In this document: positions 6,501-50,260 of the stretch, in pieces
Position numbering within the stretch: the first letter of the stretch is position 1
How the letters are laid out: the number at the start of each line of letters is the position of its first letter
From: Gonapodya sp. JEL0774
Taxonomy: Eukaryota
Reading direction: 5' to 3'
Length of the DNA stretch: 64,000 nt
Assembly: GCA_027604505.1 (NCBI GenBank)
Contig: JADIIX010000079.1
Span: 1-64,000 of the forward strand
Made by a program: the position numbers and the translations under genes
The notes under the pieces: model-generated
What the model saw: the letters and a program-made list of their open reading frames with translations, nothing else
The model's database searches: none
What the model was told of the DNA's origin: nothing

Positions 6501-6761
6501 CGGATACCAGCTGGAGAGCTTGTCAGAGGTTCTGCAAATAGGAAGTTCAAGTGGAGTGGCACTGAACCACGGAGCAGGAGTAGTTGAGACATCTTGATTA
6601 TGTACGCAAAACAATAAGGAGAAGGTTTTACATGTGTGCATCGTGACTTTGGAAAGCACACTGCAAACACAAACGGAGCAGCCCGTCGACGACAGCAACA
6701 ACCTAAACCACAAACAAGGAACAACATCGCAAGAATCCGAGGAATCCGAGCGAGAAGAGCC

Positions 6762-11304: not shown

Positions 11305-13116
11305 ACTATTCAAAGGAGGTGGCACGTTTTTGTGGATGTTTCTTTATTATTTTAAGAATTGTGTTGCAATTGAATCGTTCTTCTCAACAGGGAACTGCGT
11401 TCGTGTGCCACCTACAGCCACGACACCTGGGTGTTTCTTGGCACTTCTGGTTCGTGAAAAGTACCGAGACCGCTTTTTCAATTTAACTGCGCGGGATGAT
11501 CTTCTGACGGCTGGCGACGGCAGTGGAGATCGTGAGTTTGATCCGGACAACAGAGATCGAGAGGGCGGAGAAAATATCACCCCATCTGACCCAATCAAGT
11601 CTCCTCGACGGAGAAGACGAAGACGTGGGTCATCCTTGTCGGCGCCAACGAGAAGAGCCATCGAGTCGCAAAGTGGTGACACAGACCACTCAGGGCTCGT
11701 AGCAAGAGCCGCAAGCATGCCAACTCTGTCCGTGTTGGGATTAGGAGATCGCGGTTTCAGAACTGGTCTTGACGTGTGGAAGCATGCTGCTGGAGGTGGT
11801 GCGTCACCGCGACCTGTAGGATTGGAGGTAATGGGGACTGCAATAAGCTGGCCTCATGGACTTGGTGAAAGGAGTGGAGACGGAGATGGGACTCCGATAC
11901 AGCGCAGGAAGGAAAGGAAGAGAGTGGAGGAGAGGTGGTCGTATCCGGTGAGTTGGAGCAATGAGTCTGCGCTGACGAATCCAAAGATGTAACCATGATG
12001 ATGATTCGCTTTTCAACATTATTGTCTCTCTGTCCGACATCGTAGGTTCCGAATCCGAAAGTGTGGAAATGAAGGCAGTGATGATATGTATGGATGTTGA
12101 GCTGTTTGCAAAAAATGCGTCTGGACGGGAACAATTAGTAGGTCCCATTGTGTAAACATATTTCATGAATGGAATTCACAGCCGTGATGAGAGAGATGAT
12201 GGTCAATCCAGCCAAAGAACAATACTGCAGTACCTCGAGCAGTTGTCGGCGGCGATTGCGGATGATAGCTGGGGAGCGACTAGAATGCCTTGTGGTGGTA
12301 TGGGCGCGTGGGAATGCACTCTCACACGGTCTTTTATGAGGTGCAACTATCGATGGAGCATACTCGGCTGGGGAGCATCTGTGATGAAGTCAGCCATGTT
12401 GGCTGCTCGTGGATGGTACTAGGAGGGGAACATCATGTGAAAATGGACCAGGCGCATTTTGGCAAAACGCATCAGTTCAGGTCGGGAAAGAATGCTTGTT
12501 CCATTTTTCGTTCATTTATCGACATGGGGGGAAGAAATGTTGGTTGGCGTGTTTCGTTTCGGGGTGAACAGGGTGGTAGAGAAGCGTATCGGGAATAGAG
12601 TTTTCAAGACCCGTCATCTGCGCCAGAATCACTCCCGTCTTCTGCTGATCGTCTCAGGTGATTTGGTGCGGCGTCCTCTCTTCAACCTGACTCACCATAT
12701 TACGGTATCAGTCACTGAACACCGACTTAATTGGCACGGCGAGCACCGTCAAAACTGGCCAAAATGGGACTTTTGACTGTGACCGGACAAAGAGTGTTTG
12801 CAGACCCCCATATGGAGTGACGTTGCTCCCTGACCGGACATGTCCTCATCCATGCCCGTCTTCAACACGAGTCCATAGCACGAAGCGGCTCGTTCAACCG
12901 CTGGGAACAACTTTACTGGTCTCGTTGAAGCATAAATACATACTTGGGTGCTTGTTTGTTGTTTTGTACAATACCTGCCCCTGCCTCAGTTCTTTGGGAG
13001 GCAAACCCTTGATCACAAGAAAGCCAGGTCCTTGTTTCGGCGATTAAAAATGTCTCCGACGGTTTTAGGAAATCCGAAGCTTCACGTAGCCGTTTCGAAT
13101 CACTGCGTATCAAAGA

Positions 13117-14700
13117 ATGGACGGCCATCGGTACAAGACCGTCGCTTTCTTGTCACTCGCGCTCGTGTTCTGCGGAGTCGCCGTGTCCAACCCGATCCCT
13201 CCTTCACGATGCAATAACTATACGATCCTCGCTGGCACCTACAACGCGGCCTTGCTGCGGTTGGTCCTCGATCCTAACGCTCCTTCGCTCACCTTGGCTG
13301 AAACCATTCCCCTCAACACGTCGAAAGGAGGTCCATTCAATGCGACCAATCCATCGTGGCTGGAACCTCATCCGACAGATCCGAGATTGGCTTTTGCTGC
13401 TGACCAATCCCCGGTCGGAAGGGTCGTCTTGTTCCGCACTAGTTTGAACGGGTCTGTCTCGCATGTCGCGTCTGCTCCCTCAAATGGATACCGCCCTGCT
13501 CATGTCGGTACCACAAAGGACGGAAAGTGGGTTTTTCTGCCTCACTATAACGATGGACACTTTGTGGCCATCCCGGTGGATGTTTCGGCGGGATCGGCGG
13601 CGTTCAACACAAATCATTCGACGCTTCAAGTATACAATGGGACTGGGCCGAATTCAGCGCAAGCAGGGCCACATCTGCATATGGCGGTGAAGCATCCGTT
13701 TTCTGGGCGTGTGTTTGTTGTCGATCTTGGATGTGCGTGTTCTCTCCGTCTTTCTTGGCCGTAAAGGTTACAAACCTCACATTCACTCCCCAACAGCTGA
13801 CCGCATCCATGAACTTCGCCTCAATTCATCCAACTACTGGGTTCCAGTACAGAGCATTGTTGTAAACCCTCCGGGAACTGGACCTCGCCACATGAGGTTC
13901 TCACCAGATGGTAAACCGTTGCACTTTGCACCCTCATCAGAAGTCGGCCTATCTCTCTTTTGCTCATGTTGTGTTTCTCCTCTGCTATAGGCACAAGTGC
14001 TTTCCTGGTCGCTGAACTCGCTTCCACGCTTCACACTTACCGTGTGGCATCCCCACCCAGGGGAAGCGAAGAACCCACCGTGTTCACCGAGGTGACAGTT
14101 ATGAGTGTTGCCCCGCCAGGAGCTCAGAGCTATAATTCAAGCTTACCGCTTGGAGCAGGTGAGATCCTCCTCACAAAAGATGGGACGCAGCTCGCAGTGA
14201 CCATCAGGTGAGAGTACCGGCACTCTGTGCGGGTTCGTCTTGCATCAAATATGCGAAGATTGTTACCTATGCTTAGTGGTGATTAATTTTTTCCTTCAGA
14301 AACGACGCAAACCCGCTTGGTGATGCCATCGGCATGATCTCTCTCGAGAGCCCCTTCTCACCAACCATAGTCGGTTCTCCGACTTTCTACCGAACTGGTG
14401 GAATCCAAGCTCGGGGAATGGAGTTTGACCCTACAGTGCGTACTGCTTCGGGCTTTACTGGCCCCTTGTACAGTGTTCGGTGTTTGTCATCCCTGTCACC
14501 TAGTGCGCTCTGAACTTCTTTCGTTTTGTCCTTCTCCATCTTAATTTCGTCAACAGGACAGGTACCTCATTGCGGGAAACCGCTTTTCTGCATCGATGAT
14601 TGCGTTTGAAAGATTGTCGAACGGTACGCTTCTAGAGCTGGCACGTCTCAACGTTACGCAAGGGACGGAAGTTGCCACGTTCTTATGGGTCAAAGAATGA
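13117..14700 (+). CDS. Secreted lactonase, 7-bladed beta-propeller (6-phosphogluconolactonase / cycloisomerase-2 family)
   Basis: Signal peptide (VAFLSLALVFCGVAVS). Motifs NPSWL, PAHVGTTKDGKWVFLPHYNDG, QAGPHLHM, FVVDLG|ADRI, PPGTGPRHMRFSPDG, RGMEFDPT|RYLIAGNR. Confidence 0.85.
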
Positions 14701-15414: not shown

Positions 15415-16762
15415 ATGTCTTTCGGTTTCTCCGGCACCGAGAGTGGGAGTATGGGATATGCAGATATGAACTCTCATGGTGAGCTGGTGGAACGACTTGG
15501 CCATGCTCCGTCAAAGGAGTTAATTCATCACTTCACCCCCAAACTTTCTTGGAACAGCCATCTCAAACCCTACGTTTTTGATCCAACCACCATCGCCAAT
15601 CTTTGGCAGTATCCCGACACACAGTCCTTTTCCGCCTGCTTCGCTCTTTGGAGCCAGGGATATGTCATCAGCTTCATGTCCGCAACCAGGCAGTCACATC
15701 AGTTATCCCGATCGGACGAAGTTCACTGCACCTCTTTGGGCGAACAACAACTCGATACACTCCAACCATGTTATTCATCCTTCATCTTCCCAAAACTTTG
15801 AATCACCTGATCTCACCGAAATCATGCACACGTTCACTTGCGCTTACATCCTGTACTTTGGTGAGGTCAACAAACTCACTGCGGAAGCCCACCCAACATT
15901 GCCATCAGGGGATATACGAACACTCATACGCCAAACCTGGAAACAATTGTCGGATGAATCGCGGAAAATGTACCTTCAACGCGCTTCAGAACTTTCGAGG
16001 GAGGTCACTGTGGAACAACAGGGGGTGCTGCAAAGGTTGGCCCAAACTACGGCGCAGGCGCCGATCTATGACTCGGGTGCTTCTTGCATTCCTGACACCG
16101 TGAACAGGCACTTGGCGCTGAACTCCACTCAAATGCAACCAATGCTTTATCCTGCGCCCTCCCCATCATCCTCCCTGCCCGAAACCGAAATCTCTAATAC
16201 CGATGCTGTTTTTAGTCTCCACGACCAATCTCAATCTTGGACAGGTGCTGGATCATCTCTCCACGTGAACGACACGCCAAACGCCCCTGGAGACGCGTTT
16301 GGAAGTGTCTCGGCACGAAGCGAACTCACTTTCGGCCCTTCGTCGGGAGAAACCCCCGTTTCTGAATCTGACCGCACAAATTCCAGTGGGCAAAAGACAC
16401 TGGCACCACCTCCTGTTTCAGCGAGGCATAAGCGTTCCCGATCCTCGGGTCACTCCTCCGGAGGAGAAGCAACGGACTGCTCTGTCAGCACCGCGACGAA
16501 ATCCAAGACGAGGAAGAAGTCTCGTCGGGACCCTGCTGCTCCAAAACATCCCAGGTCAGCTTTCTTACACTATCTCACCAGTGTTATGCCGTTGTACACG
16601 GAACAACATCGCGGACTCTCCATTGGAATGAAAGCAAGGTTGATCAGCGAAGATTGGAGCAACTTACCGGCGGAGGCAAAGGAAGAGTATGTGAAGCGTT
16701 CGGACTTGGACAAGCAACGTTACCGCGAAGAGAAGGAGGCCATGCAAGAAAGGAATCGATAG
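15415..16762 (+). CDS. HMG-box protein (one divergent N-terminal box, one HMGB/Nhp6-like C-terminal box); start exon uncertain
   Basis: CAYILYFGE...IRTLIRQTWKQLSDESRKMYLQRA, and RDPAAPKHPRSAFLHYL...ARLISEDWSNLPAEAKEEYVKRSDLDKQRYREEKE, in ORF 15578-16762. Confidence 0.85.
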
Positions 16763-17559
16763 GTGGACAGTTTGGTCATGTCGGAACAAGATTTTGGAAC
16801 GCTCACAAACATTGGGCATTCGATACCATATAGTCCGGTATTAGACAGGTTTCTCGTATTATGTACATTTTATATCCATATTTACGATCTCGAGTGCACG
16901 ACAGATGAGAAATCCAAACGCGAACTCGTCTATTCATCTGTTTGGGACTTCGCCCTTTGATGTTCTGCTCTCGCACCAGTGAGTCTATTTGTGCCAAGCA
17001 CCTCGATATGGGCGGCTCAAGTTTGCGGTCCCACCCGCGTCGGTCACTCCACTTGCCCGACCAACATATTATCCCACACAAAGTCACCGCCTCAAATGCT
17101 GATTTTCGAGAAAGAGAGACAAACATGTATGTTGCCAATCTGAGAGGGGAAGAATCGAGGACAGATGAGCAATGTATCAGAAGGGAAGATCTGTCCATCA
17201 GCGTTCATGTTTTGAGTGTTTGGTAGAACTATGGCTTTGGGCATAATCCGATCTTTGGACTTTTCAAATCGCAGAAATCGCAGAACTGGACCACCGACAT
17301 CATGGGTTGGTGATGATAATATATTGCAGCGCAAAACACGGACTAGGACCCATTGGATCGCACATTCCTTTGCGGTAGAATATATAACATTTTTGGGACT
17401 TTCCTGTATGCGATATTTCGATCGTCCAAAATCAATGATGATGCTGGTCAGAGAATTCCCCGAGATGATCATGTTCTCTGCAATTGAGCCTATCGCATTC
17501 TGTGCAGAGACAAAATTTTCATGGATGTGCTCGAACATTCGCTTGCGCAATTTGTCTTT

Positions 17560-17790
17560 GGGAGGGGGGGGGGGGGGGTGGGCGTGTGTATGGAGAGTGT
17601 GGGGTAGGGGTGAAGANNNNNNNNNNTGTCTCTCTCCGTCTCTGTGCCTCGCCGGCTCTGGCGTCCTCTTTCCCGGTGTCGGGGGGGGGGCGGGGCGCCG
17701 CGCGGGGGGGGGGGCGGGGGGGGGGCGGGGGGCGCCCCCCCCGCCCCCGGGCGGGTGTATGGAGAGTGTGGGGTAGGGGTGAAGAGCGTG
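17560..17790. other. Assembly gap with poly-G/C low-quality flanks and a duplicated ~31-bp sequence
   Basis: A 10-N gap at ~17617-17626, long G runs, and GTGTATGGAGAGTGTGGGGTAGGGGTGAAGA on both sides (~17586 and ~17755). Confidence 0.75.
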
Positions 17791-18218
17791 TATCGGACAA
17801 AAGGGATCCGGAACGGACCGCCAAGACATATCATAATTTCCTGTTTCCGAGAACTGTCTCATTGTGCTTTCAGCCAAAAAGCGGATCCTTCAAAGTCAGA
17901 GTAGAATTGCTGTGGGGACTCATAAGTACATTTACTTATATTTATGTGGAATGACTTCGGTGTGACCAATGCTGAGATCGCAAAAACGCCAGCCCGACCA
18001 TCGGCGATTGTGGTTAGTCGCATTGGATTTTCAGCCACTTGGTCGCCGGATGCGTATTATTCCAAAAAGGGGTTTTCACGGAGGAACGCATCGGACAAGT
18101 GGGAGGACCCGCTCCTCATTCCACCGAATGAAGAAAATAACCGAGCGATCAACATCACATCGAACATTTTCCAGCGATCGATAACGGTGCTGCGCTTCAC
18201 AGATCGCAGACAGATCGC

Positions 18219-21200
18219 ATGAGGATGGGGAGGAGTAACACGTTACTGCTCATTCTCGTTGGGGTGATATCATCCGGCTGCTTGATCGCCGGGTCTCTCG
18301 GACAATCAGCCCCATCAACCATTCAGACCGCGGACTGTTTCGGAGAATCATGTGAGCTCTATCGACAGTTGCTTGAATCATGCACAGTTTTCACATGGCA
18401 ACCCCAGGTGGCGATGCGACGTCCCCGGAGTTGCACAAACGTCAGACGACCCGCACATGCGACTCCATCTACGCCGCGTATCTGGCTGGCACTAAGATGA
18501 CTTCGCAAGATTACAAAGATTGGACGGTGTGTTATTTTTGCCTCGATCTAGCTCAGCTTCATTCTTCTGAATTATCGTGTCATCTCCAGGCATGGTCTTG
18601 CCGGACTTGGTTTCCAAGTGGTGAGTCGACTTCTTTGACACTCACAGTGAATCAATCGACTGGAATTCATGTACGTTACCTCCATCAGGCATAGGGGCTA
18701 CAACCACCAGAACAAAGACAACGAGCAAAACTATCACAACCACTGTCCGCACCTGCGATTCCATCTACGCAGCCTATCGAGCGGGCACCAAGATGACCGC
18801 GAAAGACTACAGCGATTGGAAGGTGATTTTGGACTTTTGCATCTGTCTGGCAAATTTTTCATGGAGATTCACATTCCCCTTTCAGGCGTGGTCGTGCGCC
18901 ACATGGTTCCCGCTTGGTTAGTTCATTCCCTTATCGACCCCTCCCCCATGTCTCCGTGACACCTCTCTCTCACACATTGACTCACCAATAATCCTTTTCA
19001 GGCATTGGAGCTACGACAACCAAAGTGACCACTTCCAAAACGAGGACAACGAGCAAGACCACCACAGCTCGGACCTGCGATTCGATCTACGCTTCCTATG
19101 TGGCGGGAACAAAGTTAACCGCGAAGGATTATAGTGATTGGCAGGTACGCCTGTTTCGTGTCTCCAGTTGGGCCACCAATGCCCCGCTTTGAACTCTTCT
19201 TCTGCGATACTCGTGCTCAGTCATGGAGTTGTGTCACATGGTATCCTCAAGGAATTGGTGCTACTACAACCAGGGTTACTACTACGAAAGTGACTACCTC
19301 GAAAACAGCAACCTCTACCAAGGTTACCACTTCGAAAACAGCAACGTCCACCAAGGTGACCACCTCGAAAACAGCAACCTCTACAAAGGCCACCACTTCG
19401 AAAACGGAGACTGCAACCAAGCAGACCACTTCGAAAACCGCAACCTCTGTGAAGGAGACGACCTCCAAAACCGAGACTGCCACCAAGGAGACCACTTCGA
19501 AAACCGCAACCGCTACGAAGGAGACTACTTCCAGAACAGAGACTGCCACGAAGGTGACCACATCGAAAACAGCAACCGCTACCAAGGTTACTACATCCAA
19601 AACAGAAACTGCGACGAAAGTCACTACGTCGAAGACCTTGACTTCAAGCAAGGTCACGACAACCAAGTCCCAGACCCAGACGAAATCGTAGGTTACCATT
19701 ACTTCAAGAGCACCGACCGACTTGCTGCTTTAACTGTCCATGTACCCTCTCTCACCCAACTATTGCCGCTGTATAGATCATCCACAAAAACTGCCACATC
19801 GACCAAAGTCACTACCACCAAGGTTACCACGACCAAGTTCACCACGACGAAGAAGCAAACCAGTACCAAGACATCGAGTCGGACCACAACGTCTACCACG
19901 TACACTCATGTGGCCAACTATCCGCTCAATGTTCCGCCTTGGGCTATCGTCGTCGCTAAGGATGGCTCGGGACAGTTCACCGATATCCAATCCGCTGTTG
20001 ACTCGATCCCAGCGCACAACAAGGTCGAAAAGGTTATCTACATCAAGGCGGGTCTGTACGACACGTCGCAAATCTGGATTAATAATACGTATATCACCCT
20101 TGGTGAGTGTGGTATAGCGATGCCGCAGAGCACATTTTTGCGCTGACCCAAAGTGGTTCTGTGCAGTGGGCGACGGTATCGGCAAAACGATCATATCGTA
20201 TGGGCTCAACAAGCCTCTTTACGAAGCGATGAACCCTGGGACCACCAGTGGAAGTTTTGAATCAGCGACGGTCAAAGTTCGAGGCAAATTCTTCAAAGCC
20301 TTCGATATCACCTTCCAGAACACTGCGCCAACCAACGCTTCCGGGGTACAGGTAAGAGGTGTCGCTTTTTGTTTTTGTTGTCTCTTCATCATTTTTGCTT
20401 TTTCGGGTGCTTAGGCTCCAGCGTTTTACATGCATGCCGACAATATGTACATTGAGAACTGTGCATTTTATTCCTGGCAAGACACGTTGCTCGATTACAA
20501 GGGCACCAATCACTGGTACAAGAATATTTATGTTTTTGGTGATGGTTAGTCTGGTTAGCCAGTGGGAGAGCGAGCGATAGTGGGGTCTCACAGCGTTGCT
20601 TTTTAAAGTGGACTTTGTGTGGGGTTACGGAAGGTCTATTTTCCAAAACTCGGAGTTCCACGTTGGAAATAGACCGATGCGGGTCAATGGAACGGTGAAA
20701 TCTAGCAAAGGCTATGTCGTTGCGAATGGAGGTACGTGCGTTCTTACCCAACTTGATGTGAGTAACCGGTGCTCATGTCCGTGTATAATTTTTAAGCCAA
20801 GCCCGGTGGCTCCAAAGCAAATTCTTGGTTCTGGATTTACAATAGCTCCATAAGCGGTCCGTTCCCACGCATTTTTAAGCATCGAACGTTGGATCCTCTG
20901 TTGTAACACTTTTGCATTTGCAGCGGATCCCAACACTGACGTCTACCTTGCCCGGCCGTGGGGAACACTCGCCGCTGCGACGTTCCAAAATGTGTACATG
21001 CCTAGCTCGGTTCTTCCTGTGGGATACATCAACATGTCGTCGTTTTATCCCAAAGACACGAACTATTGGGAAGGTGAATTCCGGCAGCCATCGCTTATGT
21101 CTCTTCGTCTGTGAGTGAGAGCTGCGAGACTCAGAAAATTTCCTTCTCCAGTCAATGCTACCAATACTGGACCCGGCGCAGACACCTCGAAAAGAGCTCC

Positions 21201-24200
21201 ATATGTGCATCAAACAAACCACAATCTCACATTCTCCGAATTTTTCACAACGGATACCACGTGGCTCACCTCCGTGACAAAGTATGGTGCCAGCGTTGAC
21301 CAAGGTGCCGGGTACTTCCAACGATGCTGCACGTACTTCGCGCCGCCTGTTGTCGGCGTCCCGGTTGCCGATTACCCTGACAACGTGCTCTCAAATGCTA
21401 TCGTGGTTGCGAAAGATGGCAGCGGCAACTTCACTTCTGTTCAAGCTGCAATTGACAGCGTGCCAAACCCCAATGCTGCCGAGCAGGTCATATATATCAA
21501 AGCCGGTAATTACTCCGACTCTCAGATTGAAATCAACACGGACTACATCACGTTAGGTAATTTTCTGCCCTTCCTCATCGATTGAGGATGTGTTACTGAT
21601 AACGTGTGTGTGTTCTCTCTTCCAAAGTTGGGGACGGTATGAATGCAACAACCATATCATACTATCTCAACAACCGTAAGTAATTTGAACAATCGCAAGG
21701 CAGCACTCTGATTTTTACCGTGGTGGGCCGTCTTCTTTGGCGCATTCATCCCTTATGATCAGCTCTGTGGTCCGCCCTGTACCCCGGCGCTTCAGGCGCC
21801 AGCTTTGAATCCGCTACGGTTAAAGTCCGTGCACGTTACTTCAAAGCATTCGACATCCGCTTCGAAAACACAGCTCCCACGAATACGACCCAAGCTCAAG
21901 CACCTGCGTTCTATGTCAATGGCGACAATGTGAGTCTGCTCCGTTGTTAAGATCCGTGCCACCATGGGCCACATCCTCTTTGGTGCAGAGCTACGTTGAG
22001 AACTGTGCCTTCTATTCGTGGCAAGACACTCTTCTAAGTTACAAAGGAACAAACCAGGTCTTTAACAACGTGAGTGTTTGTCAATCACGACCATTGTTTT
22101 AAATCAAATTAAATCTCTTCGTGCTCTCTCTTTACGCACTCAGTGTTACATTTTTGGAGACGGTGAGGATTCGTCTCGGACTCAGAAATCGTGCACGCAG
22201 AGTATTTTCTCACCGACTCTCCGTCGCCTGTTTTTAATTTTAGTGGATTTCATATGGGGTTATGGCCGAGCCATGTTTGTTAACTCCGAGTTCCATGTGG
22301 GCAACCGAGCTCTCCGATTGAGTGGATCGAACGCGGCTTGGAAGGGATATGTTGTCGCATCGGGAGCAAACGATGGAACGTACGCGAACTCAGCATTTTG
22401 GCTCGTCAACAGTAGCATCTCAGGTAAAGATCATGTTACGCTGATCCCGATTCTTTGATAACAGCTTACCTGTATCGGACTGGTAGCCGATAATGGAGTC
22501 AACGTTTATCTGGGTCGGCCTTGGGGAAACCGACCTGCGGCAACATTTCAGGGTATTTTTATGCCAGGGTCGGTGAGTTGAAACTAAGGCTCGGTGGAAG
22601 CCATGATGATGTGATTGCAACTCGTTATTGACTTACTGTGCGTTCTAAGGTTGATCCAACAGGCTTCATCCCAATGTCGACTGCACCAGCAACAACCGAG
22701 TACTACGAAGTCAATACGACAAACACTGGACCCGGAGCCGACACCTCGCAGAGGGTGTCATGGGTGCACCAGACGAGCAAAGGCTTGACATTCGATGCAT
22801 TCTTCACTAGCGGCACATCTTGGCTAAAATCCGTGTCTAAGTATGGGGCTAGTGTCAAGCAAGGAAGCGGATATTTCCAAAGATGCTGCAGTGGAAACTA
22901 CACAGATCCTTCGACCATTCCAGCCACCACTGTCACAGGGTATCCCGCCAACGTTCTTTCAAATGCAATCGTGGTTGCCCTGGATGGTTCTGGAAATTTC
23001 ACGTCGATTCAAGCGGCTATTGACTCGGTGACGGTAACGAACAAAGAGCAAGTCATTTACATCAAAGCTGGTAGCTACGCTGGGTCTCAAGTTACCATCA
23101 CCAAAAATTATATAACGTTGGGTAAGTCATAATCTTCTCAGTTGAATCGGGTCAGTGCAGTGAGCCTTTCGTTTGATTCCAGTGGGTGACGGAATCGGTC
23201 GAACCATCATCACAAACAAGTACAACAATCCTATGTGGGCTGCGGATCATCCTGGCCAAAGCGGCGCAAGCGCTTACTGTGCTACAGTTCGCGTCACTGC
23301 TTCCTATTTCAAAGCATTCGATCTCACCTTTGAGAACACTGCGACATCGGACCAAGCACCAGCATTCTATATTCAAGGTAATAATCTGTACATCGAAAAT
23401 GTTGCTTTCCTATCTTGGCAGGACACCCTCCTCTCTTGGACTGGAAGTAACCAAGTATTCAACAATGTGGGTCCAAAGTATCTCCGGAAGATATGCTCAA
23501 ATCGCCGATGTATCCAACGCCACTTCCTTTTCTTCTATTCACCAAACCTATGCTCTATTTAGTGTTACATTCGTGGTGATGGTGGGATTCACGTGTCTTT
23601 CATACACTGTCCAGTACACTCACATCCAATTCGTTTATTCCGCTCTCACTCGACACAGTTGATTTCATCTGGGGGTGCGTTTCTCGATCATTTTTTACTG
23701 CAAAAGCACTCTAAAAATTTCGTCTGGCATAGTTATGGAAGGGCCGTGTTCCAGAACTGCCAGTTCCATGTTGGCAATAGGCCGCTCACCCTCTATGGCA
23801 CTAATACAGAGTGAGTACGCCGGGGGTTTGGGACTAATCGGTTGAGTCAATGACAATCGCAACTGAAACAAATTCGTAGTTGGTGGGGATCTGTGGTAGC
23901 AAACGGTGCAACTCCAACATCGTACTCGACCTCTTGCTTCTGGATGTACAATTCGACGATAAGCTGTAGGTTTTGAACGTTTTGAGCCCTGATTTATCAC
24001 ACGTGTTCATGTTTTGTTCGACTCCGAAAATGTAGCGGATGTGCGTACCACGGCATATCTTGGCAGGAATTGGGGAACACTTCCTTGCGCGTACTTCCAG
24101 TCAGTCATCATGCCTGCGTCAGTTCCGGCGGTGGGATACTCAGCGATGACTTCGGGTAACATCTCTACCAATTACTTCGAAGTTCAAGGCACCAATACCG

Positions 24201-27200
24201 GTCTCGGAAGTAATTCCTCTGGAAGAATTTCTTGGGCTCACATCACCAGCAAAGGCTTCTCATCCATTGACGATTATTTTGGGTCTGATACTACCTGGCT
24301 TCGCTCGGTGACCAAGTTTGGAAGTAGTGTTAACAAGACAGACGGGTACTTCATGCGCCTCATGACTGACACTCCGATCGCAGTGACGAGGACAACAACA
24401 ATAAAGGCATCCTACACAACAACTTCGATGTCCACAACCACAACCATTCCTGCCCCTTCATGGTACCCTGTGAATGTTCCATACAACGCTATTGTGGTAT
24501 CACAGACTGGGAATGGGCAGTACACATCCATTCAGGCAGCTTTGAACTCGGTCTCGTCTTCGAACAACGCGGAGGTTGTTATTTACATAGTTGCCGGCAC
24601 GTACACTGTTTCCTCGTCTATCACAGTCAGCAGAAACTTCATCACCTTGGTGGGAGATGGCATCAACTCCACGATCATATCCTCAAGTTTGACTGGTCTG
24701 GCTAACGGGACGATCTATGTGACTGGGACCAACTTCAAAGCATTTGACATAACCTTCGAAAATACCGTCAGCTCTGGACAGGCACCTGCCTTTATCGTTC
24801 AGGCAAATGATGTGTATTTAGAAAATTGCGCCATCCAGGGATGGACGTCGCCGATCTACGCATGGACCGGATCTAATCAGTGGTTCTACAACGTGAGTGG
24901 ACATGTATTGTGGTGACCCTAGGCAGACTTCTGATGTGACCGGTCACCCATCGCCCATTTTTGGACTTATCTATCAGTGCTACATTCGAGGAGATGGTGA
25001 GTTTTCCTTTTAAATATTTGCTTCTTGAAGCCCTGAATCATTTTCCCACCTCGTTTCTGTTCCTAGGTGACATTATCATCGGAAACTCGAGGGCCTTATT
25101 TGACAGCTGCGAAATCCACGTTGGAAACAAGAAGATTCAACTGAGCGGCCAAAACTCTGCTGTAACTGGTTCAATTGCGACCAACGGGAATAATGCGGAA
25201 CCATCGGCAACAACTTCGTCGTTCTGGATTTACAACAGCAGTATTTCCGGTATGTCGTGGATTTAGTCATTTTAGGGTGTGTTACTGAGAGTGCCGAACA
25301 CGACGCTCACCACCTCCACCAACAATCCAGCGGATTCTCTTACAACCGTGTACCTAGGGCGAGCGTGGTACCCCTACTCTTCAGTTATCTATCAATCTGT
25401 TTACATGCCCGCCTCTGTACCCTCGGTCGGCTGGACTGTCGTAAGCCCTGTGACCCAATCACAACTGTACGAGGTCAACACAACAAACTATGGTCCAGGC
25501 TCCAACACCTCTGGTCGCGTCTACTGGGCGCGTCAGGCTTCTACTGGACTCACGTTTGGTGACTTTTTCGCGACTTTGGACACGACGTGGTTGTTGAACG
25601 TCGGCAAGTACGGCGCCTCTGTCAGCCGAGGAGCAGGATACTTCGCTCGCTGTTGCTTTGAGGCTCCTGCACAAATCAGTACAACAACTTCAACTACCGC
25701 TACCACCACAATGACAGTTACTGATGCGACTACCACCAGCACTGTTACTGATGCAACCACCACTACGACTCTCACGACCACCACCACCCCAGTATCAACC
25801 CTGCCTGTCGGAGTTCCCAATACCGCCATAACTGTGTCGCAAAGTAGTAATGCTCAGTTTACTTCGATTCAAGCAGCTTTAGACTCTGTGTCACTGACCA
25901 ATGGTGCTGAGGTGGTTATTTACATTTCTTCTGGAACCTACGTGGTTTCGTCCACAATTACTGTCAGCAAGAACTATATTACATTGGTGGGGGATGGTAT
26001 CAACAAGACCATCATTTCGTCGGGCATTAGCGGGCTTGCCGCGGGTACTGTGGCGGTTACCGGAGACTTCTTCAAAGCGTTTGACCTGACATTCGACAAC
26101 AGTGTAAGCTCGGGACAAGCACCAGCCTTGGTGGTGCGAGGAACAAATGTGTACATTGAGAACTCTGCAGTGCAAGGGTGGCAATCGCCATTGTATGCCT
26201 GGAGCGGAACCAATCAGTGGTTTTACAATGTAGGTTTGCTGTTTCTTTGGGATTTAACCCATCATTTTGACTTGTTTGATCTTCATGGATCGTCGTTGAT
26301 TGTGTCAGTGTATAATTCGAGGAGATGGTGCGTATTTTTTTGTATATCTTTTTTTTTTTTGTGGTGTGACTTTTTGAGCTGACCCATTGACACGCAGGGG
26401 ATATGATCATTGGAAATTCTCGAGCATTGTTCCAAAACAGCGAGCTGCACATTGGCAACAAGAATATTCAATTGAGCAATACATACTCTGGCGGCACTGG
26501 ACATGTGGCAACGAATGGTAATAATGTGCAACCCACGTCGGCAACCTCGTCCTTCTGGATCTATAACAGCAGCATCTCTGGTGAGTACAAGACATATTTT
26601 GTGAACACTCATCTCCACACTAATGACTTCGAGGTGTTCCTATAACCAGCGGATCCTCTCATGACTGCATACCTTGGTCGCGCTTGGTTCAACTATTCTT
26701 CTGTCGTGTATCAATCGGTGTACATGCCGATCAATGTGCCTGCGGCTGGATGGACAATCGTCAATGCCGTAACTCAATCGCAATTGTACGAAGTCAACAC
26801 AACCAACCTTGGTCCAGGAGCCAGTACCGCTGGTCGCGTTTCGTGGGCAAACCAAATCAGCACCGGACTGACGTTCAGTCAGTTCTTCACCGGTGATACA
26901 ACTTGGCTTTTGGGGGTGAATAAATACGGCTCTTCTATCAATAGAGACGCGGGCTACTTTGTCCGCTGCTGTGTTGGCGACTCAGCATCATCTCAATCCT
27001 CGACATCAGTGACCACGTCATCGTCAGACGCCACTCCTTCGACAACAGTGACAGATGCAACCTCGACCACTACAGTGGAAGTAACTTCAACCTCCACTGT
27101 TACAGACGCCACTACCACTCCGGTACCGACAACCACAAGTCTGCCCCTGTCTCTACCGGCGGGCGTTCCTAACACAGCCATCACCGTATCACAAGCGGGC

Positions 27201-28395
27201 AACGGCCAGTACTCGTCCATCCAAGCCGCTTTAGACTCAGTTTCCCCATCCAACAGTGCGGAGGTGATCATTTACATTGCTTCCGGGAAGTACGTGACCG
27301 CATCCATGATCACCGTCACCAAAGGTTATATCACGTTGGTGGGAGACGGTATCAACAAGACCATTATCTCTTCGGCTCTCGGCGGTAGTCTCAGTACGGG
27401 AACAGTTGTGGTGACTGGAACAAACTTCAAGGCTTTTGACATCACCTTCGAGAACACTGTCCTCTCGGGACAGGCTCCCGCTCTCGGTCTGCGCGCGTCA
27501 AATGCTTACATTGAGAACGTCGCTGTTCAGGGATGGCAGTCGTCTTTATACTTAGGGAGCGCAACAAACCAGTGGTTCTACAACGTGAGTTGCAATTTTG
27601 TAGTTTTAATGCCGGTTAAGGTTGCTGAGACGAACCGTCTCTATCTCGCTTCACACAGTGTATCATTCGCGGAGACTGTAAGTTCCAAGTGTTTCGTAGG
27701 GTTTGACATTGTGGTACTCATTACATAACTTTCTGCGACAGCCGACATGATCATTGGTAACGGTCGAACTCTGTTCCAGAATAGTGAGCTTCACATTGGC
27801 AACAAACAGATCCAGGTCAACGGCGTGTACAACGGAATCACTGGACACGTCGCCACGAACGGTGCAAATAGCGCCACTTCCCCCTCGTCGTTCTGGTTCC
27901 TGGACAGTAGTATCTCAGGTTAGTGGGTTTGTGGCGAACGAACTGTTCAGGTCTTCAGCTGAGCTGACTTTATTTCCAATCACTCAGCCGACCCGCTTAC
28001 AACGGTTTACCTCGGTCGTGCCTGGTACAACTACTCTTCCGTGATCTATCAGTCAGTGTACATGCCGAGTAACGTTCCCGCCGTTGGTTGGACCATCGTG
28101 AGCCCGGTCGTCCAATCACAGCTGGTTGAAGTGAACACCACAAATTACGGACCTGGTTCGAATACCTCGGGCAGGGTTTCTTGGGTAAACCAAGCTTCTA
28201 CCGGTTTGACCTTTGAGCAGTTTTTCACCGGTGATACAACATGGTTGAAGAGTGTCGCGAAGTACGGAGCAAGTGTTAGCAAAGGGATAGGGTACTTCTC
28301 CAGATGTTGCGTTGGTGAGTAACCGGTGATAGTTCTTTGCACAATCGCGATTTTTGTATTGAGTGACGGGTCGTTGACGAATGATAGCGGTCTGA
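18219..28395 (+). CDS. Giant secreted pectin methylesterase (CAZy CE8) with six tandem catalytic-type domains, three N-terminal Cys/Trp modules and Thr-rich linkers
   Basis: Signal peptide; LHKR putative Kex2 site. Six copies of (I/T)V..(D/G)G.G.(F/Y)TSIQ.A.DS..VIYI..G.Y starting at ~19945, 21400, 22965, 24490, 25825 and 27175, each followed by QAPA(F/L), D(F/I/M)(I/V)xG and YL(G/A)RxW motifs. Domain junctions are continuous within single exons (GYFxRCC...NAIVV), so this is one polypeptide. Confidence 0.88.
19283..19680 (+). repeat. Coding 33-bp tandem repeat (~12 x TKVTTSKTATS)
   Basis: 11-aa Thr/Lys-rich units in ORF 19134-19691; the linker of the CE8 protein. Confidence 0.9.
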
Positions 28396-31283
28396 TGCAG
28401 TAGTGTGGATTAGAGGACTGAAGGGAGAGACGGCGTCACACTCATACTCGTACTATATATGCAAGCTACACTACAAGTACTCAATAGATAGAAGTAGTTT
28501 TGGAAACAAGCAGCACAATTTAGATGATAGAATACTGTGGCTTCGAGTTTCAAGAGTCCTTTTACTTCTTTTTCTTCTCCCTTTCACACCGTCACAAATA
28601 AGAACGTCAAATAAAATCTGGTTCGTTGCACGAAGCAAGTCTCAAGAGCCCTCATCCATCTCTTCCCTAAATCAACGAACATATCGGCAAGATCAAGACA
28701 TCACCATACCATCCAATCCGTATGTGAAAGCTTCGAGAGGATCATAGGGACTGCTCCCACGCTGGTCACTAGAGATTACGTCTGCAACGCGGGGTACTGT
28801 GGGATCCTCTGTGACCGTCCCCACATCCTGAGCCAAAATTGAGTGCTGTGCTGCAAGTAAAGGTGAGATGGTGTGCGATGCGGGCAGTATATGGAAATCC
28901 GGCACAAAGGGTGATTGAACGTACGCTTGGTGAGTGGTGGTGCCGGCGGTGGTGGTGATGAAGAAGCGTGCCGGTACGGTATGTGTACTGGAGTTGCCGT
29001 CTGTCCGGAGGCTGAGAAGTGCAGAGAGGTCTGGTTGGATGTCACAAGCAAGGAGTGTGGGGGAATTGTGCAGAGCAACATGGTCTCGTTCGGTAATCAA
29101 GCCACACACTAATAGAGAGCAGCGGACTCACTGCTTTTCGATATCCAAGAGTGCGATGTGCACCCGTTGGCATCGAACACAGACCCGGTTCTCGTTATGA
29201 ACACGTCCGAGTCAAAGCCCCTCGCCGTCACAGCGTCTGCATCCAAGTCTACGATTCCTCGGAGTGGCTCCGCTCCCGAAAAAGCACCATTCAGACTGTT
29301 TGTCAGTCCGTGGTCCGTCCACGACACTGCAAAGCACGTGTCCAACTCTGGAGGAGGCGGAGTGTGGTGGAGAATGGAAACGTGTGGGATTGATCAGGCT
29401 TTTGTGATACTTCTCGCCGTCTGTGGCGCTGGTGCTGATAGCACCACTGCTGTTTGTTCTGCTGGTAATGACGGTGCCAGTCCGGACACAGCGAACATTG
29501 TTCCGCGACGTGTTGGTGGGTCCTTGTGGCGGGGGCGCCTTTGCCCGGTTTGATTAGTCCTTTTCGTTTGAGGGTCTGGCGTAATGTGGAGCTAGTGGAG
29601 GAAGGATGTGCGAAACAGAGAATGGTGAGTCAGCGCTCTGTCTTGGTAAATTGAGAATGCACAACACAAAAACCACACCACACCACACCAACAATAAAAC
29701 AAAAGAATAATGAATGAACAACAACGACAGCAATGACAGTAATAACAACAGCAACAACAACAGAACGAAAGTACGGATTCTCACTAGTCGACAACAGCAC
29801 CCTGCCACCACTCCGGGACGCGAAAACGCATGTTGCATTTCTTCCCGCTGGGTCGATTGCGATTACATGTTTGCGTGACGAGACGCACATCGGAGGGGGG
29901 AGGGGGAGCACCGTGAGATATCCGAGCACGGTCGACGAACTTGAGATTCACTGTGTGACTGGTGTAGTGATGGGCAATAACAGAAAGAAAGAATTGAATT
30001 GAATGATGAATGAAGTGCGATAAACCTCCGTGGGGTGCTCATCCAACTTAATTTTCCCCCACATCCTCCAGCCGAGATTTTCCCGCGTCTGTAATGGGTT
30101 AAGGGAGGATTGCATAAATAAAAAAGCGCCATCTCTCAATGGCGACAGTGTTCGGCGCCCAGGTTGTGGGGAGCTCGACTCGCTCCGGTTCGAGGGGGCG
30201 CGCTCTTGCGTGTGTCCAGGACTGACTGACACACTCACCCGCAGCCTTCACGGACACACGTTACGAGCTCGACTTTGGCCAAGAGGCGAACTTGGGACAG
30301 CGGAAGGAGGTAATTGGCGAGGTGCATGGGTGAATGGTGGCGGGGTAGGTAAGATGGAACCGAGCGAGAGTAAGATGTTCTTCTCAGCAGGACACGACGC
30401 GTCCTCGTAACCAAAGAGACTGATGGACGACGGTGTTGTTCCCTTCTGCAAGATGGAGAATCGGGGTGTTGCGGCTTGTTGGCTTTTGGACCGGACGGGA
30501 GCAGACGATCTTTCAGAAACCTTTAGCGAGAATCGTTTTTTGAAAGACAGAATCCATTAAAACGAACGTTATCCGGGATTGGGGATTCTAATATTGTGAT
30601 ATTATCTGGATACCTGTTTGCAACCCCCACTTTGGAGAGCCGATCTGGACGGCCCTCCGAAAACAATATATTCGTGATTGGTTTGTGCCGAAGTAGCCAG
30701 AATATGTATGCGCACAGAGAGACAAATAATTATTCCAAGCATCGCGCGTGAGACCGCCGATTGCGAAGATTTGTGGCCGCTGGGGAGGTGCCGACACCGG
30801 CTGGCGAGAACAGGTCTTCCAACCGGCGGCTGATAAAATTTTCGTACTTAGAATCTGAGCGACACTGCTTGCTTTTTAATCCGTGCTTGTGCATGGTTTT
30901 TAGGATTGTTTATGACAGTCTATAATACAGTATTAACGAATAAATTTCCTTTTGTGTCTCCCTTGGGCTTGATGTGTGATCAAGACCTCACAGTCAATCA
31001 ACCATTTCAATTTGAATGGATCCTGTAAGATTAAATCTCTTCGAACCTGTAGACTTGGACTGTTTTCCATGTTATATTTATAGCTGTTCCCCTTAGCCGA
31101 AGTCGTCCAAGCCGGCAGTCCCGGTTGAGAGAGTCCGGAGCTTCTTTAGTTGGTAACCAGCAAACCAACAGTGGATGTTACCCTGCTTGGGTGGCTGCGG
31201 CTTGAATGGTGATATGTTCGCCCGGGGCCGAGTTTTCCCGTTCAATCATCGCTAACCCAATCGAGCACCTGGTCTGTCCACAT

Positions 31284-33198
31284 ATGGCGCCGACACTCGG
31301 CTTTGATTCCCTGCTCAACCTGGCTTCCGTGCCGTCAAAGTCATCCGACTTCGTCTTTGTGTTTGTCACGAGGACTCCTCGAGAAATGGGTGGTGGCGGC
31401 AACAGAGACTCTGCGTGCGTTCTTTGCATTTACCTTTACTTTATCTGTTTCTTGTGGAGTGCTGTCATTCCGATTTCATATCTGTTCCTTGTTCCTCTTG
31501 GCTTGCTCTACCCCGATGGCCAACGTTACATTCACACATCCCACTGTTCCTTGTGTCACGTTAAAAAAAACTGCATTTCGTACGCCATGACTCTCCAGCT
31601 TGTTCGGTGGCTATCTCTTAGCACTTGCTACAAAGGCCGCCTTGACTGTCGCAAACGCAAAAGGGTATCCGCACATTATGACCCTCAGTCTAGACATTCT
31701 TCAACCAGTGTCGGTCGATCAGGAACTCGGTGCGTCGCTTGTCAGATGCTCGTTTGTCTCTTCCACTCTGAATTCTCTGCTTTTCACTCGGGCAACACCG
31801 ACATCGTTTCTATTAACAAATGCTGTCACACACTTTTACACATTCGACCATTCCGACTCTGACTCTACAATTGTTCACCACATACATCTATTCAACCACT
31901 CAAATAAATCCTTAAATCCCACGTAGAAACCACGGTTCAGATCATCCGCTCATCTCGACGCATCTGCTTCCTCCGCGCCACCACCACCATCTCAAACACC
32001 CCCAACCCAGTCCTCGCATTCCAATCGACATGCGGCTACCTCTCCTCTACACCACCCTCCCCATCCATCTCCCACCGCGTATCCCCCCGTTACTCCTTCT
32101 CCAGAACCGTTCGCGCCTCCGCACCTTCCCTCATCTCCCCCTCGACCGCCTACGGACCTATCCACACCCTCGCGGCCGCCATGGTGCCCTCAACAGAAGC
32201 ACCTGCGGCCAAAGTGACCGGCCTGCTCCTCACGCGGTCGAAAAATCTCCACGCTGCGTTGGCTCGGTACTCCGAGGAAGCCCTCACGTACTGCAAGGGC
32301 GTCGTGGCAAGAAGGGGCATTGCGGGACTGGCCAAGGAGTCCTGGGAGGGACTGGATGATATGCCGTGTGTGGTAGGTGCGTTGGATGCGGTTCTGGTCG
32401 TCGCGGTGGTTGCCTCGTTGTTGCTTCATCACCGGGATCGCGTTCTATCGGTTGCTACTACGATTTCTGGATTTGGAGGAGACGCATTCGGGAAATAGCT
32501 CCTGGCGCCAGTGCCCTTTAGCTCCCCCAATCCCCTGTTTCCACGTTTGTCCTCCGGTCCCTTACACTCCGCTCTCCCTCCTTCTCTCCCTTTCGTTTTG
32601 TCCTTTCTAACTGATGTCTCCTCCCCTCCAACCGATGCCAACATCCATCATCAAGCAAGACCCGACGAACAACCCATGGATGCTCCGGTACGTCGTGTGT
32701 CTTGTTTCTTGTAAACCTCCATGACCTCACGCACAATCCCAATTGACCACCCACCACCGCCCTTGCATCCACCAACAGTCGGCCGCTTTCTTCGCGGACC
32801 TCAACGCCCCTTCCTTCACCCTCTCGACTTATTTTGGCCCCGCCATAATTTCCGTGACCGTCTCCCTCTCCATCCAGTTTCTCAAACCCGTCCCTCCCGA
32901 CACGAGGTGGATGTATCTCATAGTACGCAACATTGCCAGCGATGTATCACAGTCGCTCTTGGACGGAGAGGTTGAGGCACGTTCTGAGAGTTCCGGTGTC
33001 GGACCCGACGGACACAGGAATCGCCCTCTCGCACAAGTGCGAGAACATGTCCGAGGCCCACAGAAAGAGTTCGGCTCTGTTGCGCACACCGAGTCGGCCA
33101 TGTGGGCACCGGACGGGACACTTGTGTGCGTACAGAGGCAGGCCAGGGTCATCACGGGCCCGGTGACACCGTTGCTCGCAGGGGGCGCGATGTTATGA
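31284..33198 (+). CDS. Double-hotdog acyl-CoA thioesterase-like protein (multi-exon)
   Basis: LFGGYLLALATKAA, TLSLDILQPV, VQIIRSSRR, AFFADLNAP, VTVSLSIQFLKP, ESAMWAPDGTLVCVQRQ match the thioesterase-like hotdog pattern. Confidence 0.78.

Positions 33199-48030: not shown

Positions 48031-50260
<2,230 letters not shown>

What the first reader, a model, noticed from the sequence alone, without database searches (positions are those of the whole stretch)
19920..28395. Six-domain pectin methylesterase with three active-type and three pseudo-enzyme domains
Seen: domains 1-3 have WQDTL and VDF(V/I)WG. Domains 4-6 replace QDTL with TSPI, QSPL and QSSL (~24845, 26182, 27537) but keep the second Asp (GDIIIG, GDMIIG, ADMIIG) and LGRAW. 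Established: CE8 catalysis needs two Asp residues, one in QDTL, and fungal PMEs usually carry a single catalytic domain. Inference: the three C-terminal beta-helices are non-catalytic pectin-binding or processivity modules, or decoys for plant PME inhibitors. The ORF stays open through them, which suggests they are maintained by selection.
Basis: partly seen in the sequence, partly recalled or inferred. Interest (0 to 1): 0.82.

Follow-up and report, generated by a model that had tools for sequence, protein, structure and literature searches.

The report
Pectin enzyme carrying three disarmed copies
A water-dwelling fungus has one very long gene for a predicted secreted pectin-stripping enzyme, built from three intact enzyme units and three units that lack one catalytic residue yet are preserved by selection and likely serve as pectin-gripping tethers, a layout that also appears to have arisen separately in other fungi and in bacteria.

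Summary
The locus splices into one 2,532-aa reading frame (18219–28322, 36 exons) with six pectinesterase domains. NCBI's model of this gene is KAJ3338682.1, Gonapodya sp. JEL0774. All five domain-to-domain linkers lie inside single exons, so these are not separate genes. Domains 1–3 keep both aspartates; domains 4–6 have Ser for the first and keep the second Asp, Arg and Trp. G. prolifera has the same Asp→Ser domains. Synonymous sites are saturated while pN is about 0.2, and domain 6 folds as a normal PME. Corrections: ADMIIG is SDMIIG after splicing, and the gene starts 1.7 kb upstream with a signal-like peptide and three copies of an unannotated Cys/Trp module shared with other chytrid proteins. 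Mixed intact-plus-degenerate arrays also occur in Fusarium, Rhynchosporium, Berkeleyomyces and actinobacteria, with separate origins. Best reading: non-catalytic pectin tethers (0.55, untested); inhibitor decoy is unlikely (0.07). The scan earlier noted a dead CE8 domain in a Prevotella genome. No transcript data.

The parts
18219..18351 (+). Exon 1: start codon and hydrophobic signal-peptide-like stretch; the KR site (residues 55-56) follows in exon 2
   Evidence: model; mean hydropathy 2.5 over 12 residues from residue 9; no signal-peptide predictor was available. NCBI's model omits this exon.
18452..19253 (+). Three copies of a 36-aa Cys/Trp module (18452-18690, 18748-19003, 19070-19253, intron-split), with no Pfam family
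   Evidence: the same module occurs on a G. prolifera GH26 (5 copies), a G. prolifera hypothetical protein (4), a Gonapodya M60 peptidase (2) and a Cladochytrium tenue protein (4). Low-confidence helix-hairpin model; no structural match.
19254..19921 (+). 193-aa Thr/Lys/Ser stalk (86 Thr, 31 Lys, 26 Ser)
19922..21330 (+). CE8 domain 1, intact catalytic set (QAPA, WQDTL, VDFVWG, ARPW)
21376..22889 (+). CE8 domain 2, intact catalytic set (WQDTL, VDFIWG, GRPW)
22944..24364 (+). CE8 domain 3, intact catalytic set (WQDTL, VDFIWG, GRNW); 75% identical to its G. prolifera counterpart
24467..25656 (+). CE8 domain 4, pseudo-type (WTSPI: first Asp and the Gln before it lost; GDIIIG, GRAW), after a 34-aa Thr-rich linker
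25804..26972 (+). CE8 domain 5, pseudo-type (WQSPL, GDMIIG, GRAW), after a 49-aa Thr-rich linker
27156..28310 (+). CE8 domain 6, pseudo-type (WQSSL, SDMIIG, GRAW), after a 61-aa Ser/Thr-rich linker; predicted intact beta-helix
   Evidence: pLDDT 88.9; TM 0.84 to tomato PME 1xg2
18219..28322 (+). Whole gene: 36 exons, 35 GT-AG introns, 2,532 aa
   Evidence: NCBI model P0019 (2,398 aa) is identical at 2,238 positions and differs in five stretches

Best explanation
This is a single gene for a 2,532-residue, predicted secreted CE8 pectin methylesterase of the aquatic fungus Gonapodya, in which domains 1-3 keep the full catalytic residue set and likely remove methyl esters from pectin, while domains 4-6 lack the first catalytic aspartate and likely act as non-catalytic pectin-binding tethers on long flexible linkers. 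Shown: one frame, six domains, the residue changes, their conservation in a second species, purifying selection, and linker lengths. Predicted: an intact beta-helix fold for domain 6. Inferred: Asp-to-Ser removes turnover, as in the engineered Dickeya D178A mutant that was crystallised with hexasaccharide. Inferred: the retained Gln, Asp, Arg and Trp keep a groove that holds homogalacturonan, probably the still-methylated form, since these domains carry fewer basic residues. Inferred: the tethers keep the enzyme on decaying fruit tissue in open water and feed chains to the three closely linked active domains, ahead of the fungus's polygalacturonases. The N-terminal Cys/Trp repeats are likely a second binding or docking module, with ligand unknown.
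For: All 5 inter-domain linkers lie within single exons, with no intron, stop or KR/RR site. All 5 pseudo domains from two species form one clade (100/99) and share Ser at the first Asp. They keep the Gln153-, Asp199-, Arg267- and Trp269-equivalents in 5 of 5, Gln177 in 4 of 5, and an aromatic at Tyr181 in 5 of 5 (Dickeya contact list from PMC10530356). Between domains 4, 5 and 6, pS is 0.73-0.75 (saturated) and pN 0.18-0.21; dN/dS is 0.078 for the one pair where it could be computed. Domain 6 model: pLDDT 88.9, best matches are PMEs. PDB 2nsp, 'D178A mutant in complex with hexasaccharide I', shows that a PME lacking this Asp still binds substrate (title seen). Linkers before the pseudo domains are 34, 49 and 61 aa at 59-66% Ser/Thr/Pro, against 15 and 18 aa between active domains, the pattern typical of binding modules (general knowledge). 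K+R count is 12-14 against 17-25 in active domains. G. prolifera is an aquatic saprotroph on decaying fruit that grows on pectic sugars and has 14 GH28 genes. Mixed arrays recur in 7 of 26 multi-domain hits, and a single origin of the degenerate units is rejected (p-AU 2.3e-10).
Against: No binding or activity data exist. Known substrate contacts are also changed: Phe202-equivalent to Ile in 5 of 5, Thr109-equivalent to Gly in 4 of 5 (inferred mapping), and a 13-14 residue loop deleted. 45% of all columns (138 of 309) are invariant among the five pseudo domains, so invariance of four cleft residues is only modest evidence for a used cleft; selection could act on the fold alone. The Asp199-Arg267 pair may be structural. 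Domain 4 has also lost Gln177, which may be erosion. The dN/dS values compare paralogues and average over a long time. Roles of the two aspartates and the inactivity of D178A are recalled from Fries et al. 2007, which I did not read.
Confidence: 0.55

Rival explanations
1. Domains 4-6 are enzymes with a changed chemistry or substrate. The new Ser and the retained Asp could work as a Ser-Asp dyad, or the single Asp could act on a more reactive ester or on an acetyl group of pectin.
For: Ser is fixed in 5 of 5 domains and is two nucleotide steps from Asp (codon TCG in all three window domains). The oxyanion-hole Gln, second Asp and Arg are kept. E. coli YbhC shows a parallel pair of changes, QNTF and DIVSG, and was once reported to be a thioesterase (PMC11982519).
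Against: The same passage says later work found no YbhC esterase activity on pectin or palmitoyl-CoA. No His is invariant in the pseudo domains alone. Ser invariance is not special at a 45% background. Other lineages use Gly, Gln, Asn, Ala or Ile at this site, which fits loss rather than gain.
Confidence: 0.15
2. Domains 4-6 are a structural stalk, spacer or protein-interaction surface. Selection keeps the beta-helix fold, and the cleft binds no pectin.
For: Loss of the Phe202-equivalent, the cleft-side loop and a third or more of the basic residues. Some ascomycete degenerate units have lost the second Asp, Arg and Trp as well, yet persist in several genera.
Against: In Gonapodya the exposed cleft residues Gln, Asp, Arg and Trp stay fixed across saturated synonymous divergence. 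The domains sit at the free C-terminus on flexible linkers, with no membrane anchor after them, a poor place for a spacer.
Confidence: 0.15
3. Domains 4-6 are decoys that soak up plant PME inhibitors in fruit and protect domains 1-3.
For: The substrate is decaying fruit. The domain 6 model's best structural match is tomato PME from the PME-inhibitor complex. The shortened loop leaves a more open cleft (inferred). Inactive-paralogue decoys are known for an oomycete xyloglucanase (recalled).
Against: [quoted passage not shown] Mean alignment scores to 17 plant-type PMEs are 272-300 for pseudo and 261-309 for active domains; plant consensus residues shared with pseudo domains only number 6, with active domains only 12. 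The host tissue is dead, and the same layout occurs in actinobacteria.
Confidence: 0.07
4. The pseudo domains are decaying duplicates, or belong to separate genes fused only by annotation.
For: No RNA evidence was obtained. Domain 4 has an additional loss (Gln177). Copy number differs between species: three pseudo domains here, two in P0001.
Against: Linkers are inside exons; there is no stop or frameshift in 2,532 codons. Three intron positions are shared by domains 4-6 and by domains 2 and 3, two of them also by domain 1. pN/pS 95% intervals are 0.20-0.34. NCBI models join the domains in both species.
Confidence: 0.03

Closest known systems
CE8 pectin methylesterases (tomato 1xg2, carrot 1gq8, Aspergillus niger 5c1c, Dickeya PemA 1qjv)
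   Same: PF01095 match, beta-helix fold (TM 0.72-0.84 for domain 6); full Asp-Asp-Arg set in domains 1-3.
   Different: These solved enzymes are single catalytic domains. Here there are six in one chain, three without the first Asp. The active domains have DF(V/I)WG and QDTLL for the usual DFIFG and QDTLY.
Dickeya PemA D178A mutant (PDB 2nsp)
   Same: First Asp absent, second Asp, Arg and Trp present; crystallised with hexasaccharide (title).
   Different: Engineered single change. The natural domains also change Thr179 to Pro or Ser and Phe202 to Ile, and lose a loop.
E. coli YbhC (PDB 3grh)
   Same: Natural CE8-fold protein with the first Asp replaced (Asn) and the Phe202-equivalent lost; no pectin esterase activity shown.
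   Different: Stand-alone lipoprotein that has also lost the cleft Trp; not fused to active domains; lower structural match (TM 0.69).
Multi-CE8 proteins of ascomycetes (Fusarium solani KAJ4211297.1, Rhynchosporium CZT13450.1, Berkeleyomyces KAL5627266.1) and actinobacteria (Kineococcus WP_432484233.1, Geodermatophilus WP_457037253.1)
   Same: Tandem CE8 domains with intact and first-Asp-deficient units in one chain.
   Different: Separate origins. In the ascomycetes the degenerate units are N-terminal and some have lost all catalytic residues; the replacing residue is Gly, Ala, Ile, Gln or Asn, not Ser. I found no paper describing any of them.
Multidomain Butyrivibrio PmeC5 (PMC12109409)
   Same: About 2,000-aa secreted PME with accessory domains proposed to hold it on the plant wall.
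   Different: The passages describe one PME catalytic domain plus PL9 and adhesin-like domains, not tandem dead CE8 copies.
Insect multi-domain GH18 chitinases with inactive catalytic domains (recalled, not checked)
   Same: Tandem catalytic domains of which some lack the catalytic acid and are thought to aid binding.
   Different: Different fold, family and substrate; analogy only.

Membership tests
CE8 pectin methylesterase (domains 1-3) | PF01095 match above the curated cut-off | tested here: met
   818 bits, 6 stretches for P0019
CE8 pectin methylesterase (domains 1-3) | Two Asp plus Arg catalytic set, with oxyanion Gln and cleft Trp | tested here: met
   all present in 3 of 3; set described as strictly conserved in PMC12109409
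CE8 pectin methylesterase (domains 1-3) | Methanol release from pectin | not testable with these tools
   No assay; no characterised member of this chytrid clade found in the searches
Active CE8 enzyme (domains 4-6) | First catalytic Asp (QDT motif) | tested here: not met
   Ser in 3 of 3 window domains and 2 of 2 in G. prolifera
CE8 fold (domains 4-6) | Right-handed parallel beta-helix of PME type | tested here: met
   Predicted for domain 6 only: pLDDT 88.9, top 15 Foldseek hits are CE8-fold entries
Pseudoenzyme kept by selection | Purifying selection and conservation in another species | tested here: met
   paralogue-based dN/dS only, no orthologous DNA available
Carbohydrate-binding module | Demonstrated non-catalytic binding to a carbohydrate | not testable with these tools
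   Only indirect: linkers, retained cleft residues, analogy to 2nsp
YbhC-like proteins | First Asp to Asn, loss of cleft Trp, stand-alone lipoprotein | tested here: not met
   Ser not Asn, Trp retained, fused to active domains
Inhibitor decoy | Resembles the inhibitor's target more than the active partner does | tested here: not met
   no excess similarity to plant PMEs; whole-domain measure, interface residues not examined
Known fungal dockerin or CBM family (N-terminal repeat) | Pfam or structural match | tested here: not met
   No Pfam family over the repeats at E up to 1; no fold match, but the model is low-confidence

The most novel reading that the evidence does not exclude
Disarmed CE8 beta-helices are an undescribed class of pectin-binding module that reads methyl-esterification, invented at least three times (Gonapodya, ascomycetes, actinobacteria) by removing one aspartate from a tandem duplicate. 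In Gonapodya they are joined to three active esterases and to a new Cys/Trp module that tags several secreted proteins of aerobic zoosporic fungi for a common surface or scaffold, a cellulosome-like strategy outside the anaerobic gut fungi.
Probability: 0.25. Interest if true: 0.8.

Novelty: new variant of a known kind. Interest (0 to 1): 0.56.

Why it matters
If domains 4-6 bind methylated homogalacturonan, they are natural versions of the D178A substrate trap. They would offer probes for pectin methylation and a direct test of how tethering affects PME processivity, with active and dead copies from one gene as matched controls. The repeated origin of mixed arrays suggests a general design that annotation hides, since pipelines count such genes as one hypothetical protein or as several active domains. 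The gene also bears on how early-diverging aquatic fungi digest plant walls without losing enzyme to open water, and it exposes an unnamed 36-aa module shared by chytrid secreted proteins. The general idea of dead catalytic domains serving as binders is known in other families, which caps the surprise.

Tried and rejected
No whole genome is held for this window, so paralogues and orthologous DNA could not be searched. No RNA holder was listed for 18400-28399; this is no evidence either way. I first suspected domain 3 had NFVWHS in place of DFIWG by reading through an intron; a 16-nt micro-exon restores VDFIWG, and NCBI's model agrees. An alternative 3' intron from 28315 would change only the last residues or add a non-domain tail; NCBI's model also ends at this stop. 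Branch-point motif check: 11 of 35 introns against 12% of random exon stretches, weak support only. Plant mimicry by the pseudo domains: not seen. The VIA-align second look at the domain 6 model did not complete, so the fold match rests on Foldseek. ESM Atlas gave no usable feature hit for the Cys/Trp module. No complex prediction was run: no true plant inhibitor sequence was at hand, and a pass would likely reflect likeness to 1xg2. Kent et al. 2016 (PMC4714216) is not held. Paper searches that found no description of tandem or dead CE8 domains in Gonapodya or other fungi: 0 papers; 0; 1 paper, Butyrivibrio; for the repeat. The library lacks most subscription papers, and I did not open the supplements of PMC4494064, whose CE8 trees may include KXS11264.
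Full report
GENE MODEL. Three-frame reading of 17900-28500 and splice-site listing give one model from ATG 18219 to the stop at 28320-28322: 36 exons, 35 GT-AG introns of 56-96 nt, 2,532 codons and no internal stop. A profile search of 1.84 billion representatives with the closest relative returned P0019. NCBI names it hypothetical protein KAJ3338682.1 of Gonapodya sp. JEL0774; it is identical to my model at 2,238 of its 2,398 positions. It is an independent annotation of the same gene and also joins all six domains. It differs in five stretches: it lacks the signal-peptide exon, reads most of the Thr/Lys stalk in another frame, and drops about 11, 9 and 86 residues elsewhere. Pfam finds six pectinesterase stretches in it.

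ONE GENE OR SEVERAL. All five linkers between domains lie inside single exons, and none holds a KR or RR site. The frame runs from the end of each domain into the next without a stop or a new signal peptide. Intron positions are shared across domains: three positions in domains 4-6 match domains 2 and 3, two of them also domain 1. This supports both the splice model and origin by tandem duplication inside the gene. No RNA run was listed, so expression is untested. The weakest joint is intron 7, between the N-terminal stalk and domain 1, where skipping the splice would end the chain; NCBI's model also joins these parts, though by reading through that intron in another frame.

CATALYTIC RESIDUES. 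Alignment to tomato and carrot PME places QDT, VDF and LGR.W unambiguously. Dickeya numbering follows the contact table of PMC10530356 (passages) by motif spacing. Domains 1-3 have Gln153, Gln177, Asp178, Asp199, Arg267 and Trp269 equivalents. Domains 4-6 have Ser for Asp178, keep Gln153, Asp199, Arg267 and Trp269, keep Gln177 in two of three, have Ile for Phe202, and lack a 13-14 residue loop. Among 206 other CE8 domains from 167 of 170 fetched proteins (one region counted twice), 182 have Asp at the first position and 1 has Ser. PMC12109409 calls the Asp-Asp-Arg set strictly conserved (passages), and PMC3913658 says both aspartates take part in catalysis (passages). That Asp178 is the acid/base, Asp199 the nucleophile and D178A inactive is recalled from Fries et al. 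2007, which I did not read; I saw only the PDB title of 2nsp, the D178A mutant with hexasaccharide.

CONSERVATION AND SELECTION. G. prolifera KXS11264.1 (P0001) is an N-terminally incomplete model holding the end of one domain, an intact domain 75% identical to domain 3, and two Asp-to-Ser domains 60-69% identical to domains 4-6. The five pseudo domains form one clade (100/99) inside a clade of chytrid PMEs whose other members, including single-domain proteins of G. prolifera and Zopfochytrium, are intact. The loss therefore predates the split of the two species. Among domains 4-6 synonymous sites are saturated (pS 0.73-0.75) while pN is 0.18-0.21; dN/dS is 0.078 for domains 4-5 and not computable for the other two pairs. 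These are paralogue comparisons. AlphaFold2 with 72 sequences models domain 6 at pLDDT 88.9, and its top Foldseek matches are PMEs, TM 0.84 to tomato PME.

After a hydrophobic stretch and a KR site come three 36-aa repeats with two Cys and three Trp, then a 193-aa Thr/Lys stalk. A search with two repeats found 4 proteins among 144 candidates: a G. prolifera GH26 (5 copies), a G. prolifera hypothetical protein (4), a Gonapodya M60 peptidase (2) and a Cladochytrium tenue protein (4). Pfam has no family for the repeat. The model is a low-confidence helix hairpin per repeat (pLDDT 63) with no structural match. A small aromatic, probably disulphide-closed module shuffled among unrelated secreted proteins behaves like a binding or docking module; which one is unknown.

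THE LAYOUT RECURS. Of 26 fetched proteins scored with more than one CE8 domain (one an artefact of my merging, several probably fused plant gene models), 7 clearly mix intact and first-Asp-deficient domains. Five carry names: Fusarium solani (2 degenerate + 3 intact), Rhynchosporium (1+3), Berkeleyomyces (1+3), Kineococcus (1+2) and Geodermatophilus (1+2); two are unnamed. In a 39-domain tree the degenerate units fall in three places, each beside intact domains of its own lineage, and a single clade is rejected (p-AU 2.3e-10). I named the groups after seeing the tree, left P0047 out of this tree, and the search kept only the best 150 of 3,507 hits, so the true spread is wider and unmeasured.

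MECHANISM. Most likely (0.55), domains 1-3 de-esterify pectin and domains 4-6 hold the protein on it. For this reading: the cleft Gln, Asp, Arg and Trp are retained, a PME without this Asp binds hexasaccharide (2nsp), the linkers lengthen to 34-61 Thr-rich residues exactly where the pseudo domains begin, and G. prolifera lives on decaying fruit in water and grows on pectic sugars (passages of PMC6690862 and PMC4494064). Fewer basic residues suggest a preference for methylated chains, which is inference. Against it: Phe202 and a cleft-side loop are lost, and 45% of columns are invariant anyway. Rivals are altered catalysis (0.15; parallel changes in YbhC, whose reported activity was not reproduced according to PMC11982519, passages), a ligand-free structural role (0.15), an inhibitor decoy (0.07; passages of PMC13477033 and PMC7697075; no plant-like shift) and decay or separate genes (0.03).

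NOVELTY. Domains 1-3 are ordinary CE8 members by sequence. Domains 4-6 have the CE8 fold but fail the catalytic-residue test. My paper searches found no description of tandem or dead CE8 domains in Gonapodya or other fungi; the library is incomplete, and the supplements of PMC4494064 were not opened. Dead catalytic domains used as binders are known in other carbohydrate-active families (recalled), and this scan noted a fully dead CE8 domain in a Prevotella genome (not checked by me). Verdict: a real, conserved, apparently undescribed variant of a known kind, with function untested. Interest 0.56.

Noticed in passing
window 18452-19253 (+): Three copies of an unannotated 36-aa Cys/Trp module, also found on a GH26, an M60 peptidase and two hypothetical proteins of Gonapodya and Cladochytrium; candidate new binding or docking module.
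   Followed up: partly
P0049, P0035, P0075, P0047, P0094, P0060, P0158: Tandem CE8 arrays with degenerate units in ascomycetes and actinobacteria, of separate origin; some ascomycete units have lost all catalytic residues.
   Followed up: partly
window 23675-23732 (+): An intron found only in domain 3 whose 3' end reads in frame as NFVWHSYG, echoing the DFIWGYG that it interrupts; may be an intron gained by tandem duplication, or chance.
   Followed up: no
window 18219-28322, against NCBI model KAJ3338682.1: The public gene model omits the signal-peptide exon, reads most of the Thr/Lys stalk in another frame and drops the domain 4-5 linker; it is labelled hypothetical protein.
   Followed up: yes
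window 28315-28387 (+): A strong splice donor lies just before the stop codon; an alternative last intron would change only the final residues.
   Followed up: partly
window 17500-17800: A 10-base N run at 17617-17626 inside a GC-rich stretch that appears duplicated on both sides; probably an assembly gap, 600 bases upstream of the gene.
   Followed up: no
window 6618-8021, 13090-13761, 15524-16759, 32725-33195, 37142-37594, 49446-50042, 54024-54893, 58635-59288, 60180-61580: Neighbours by Pfam among 63 of the 66 long ORFs outside the gene: ankyrin repeat, lactonase, double HMG box, acyl-CoA thioesterase-like (weak), PAN domain (weak), aminotransferase, FAD oxidoreductase, carboxylesterase, LRR (weak). 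No second pectinase was seen, but short exons were not scanned.
   Followed up: partly
P0001, P0020, P0021, P0022, P0023: Chytrid and anaerobic-fungus PMEs form their own well-supported clade apart from the ascomycete multi-domain PMEs, plant and bacterial sequences sampled; no characterised member turned up in the paper searches.
   Followed up: partly
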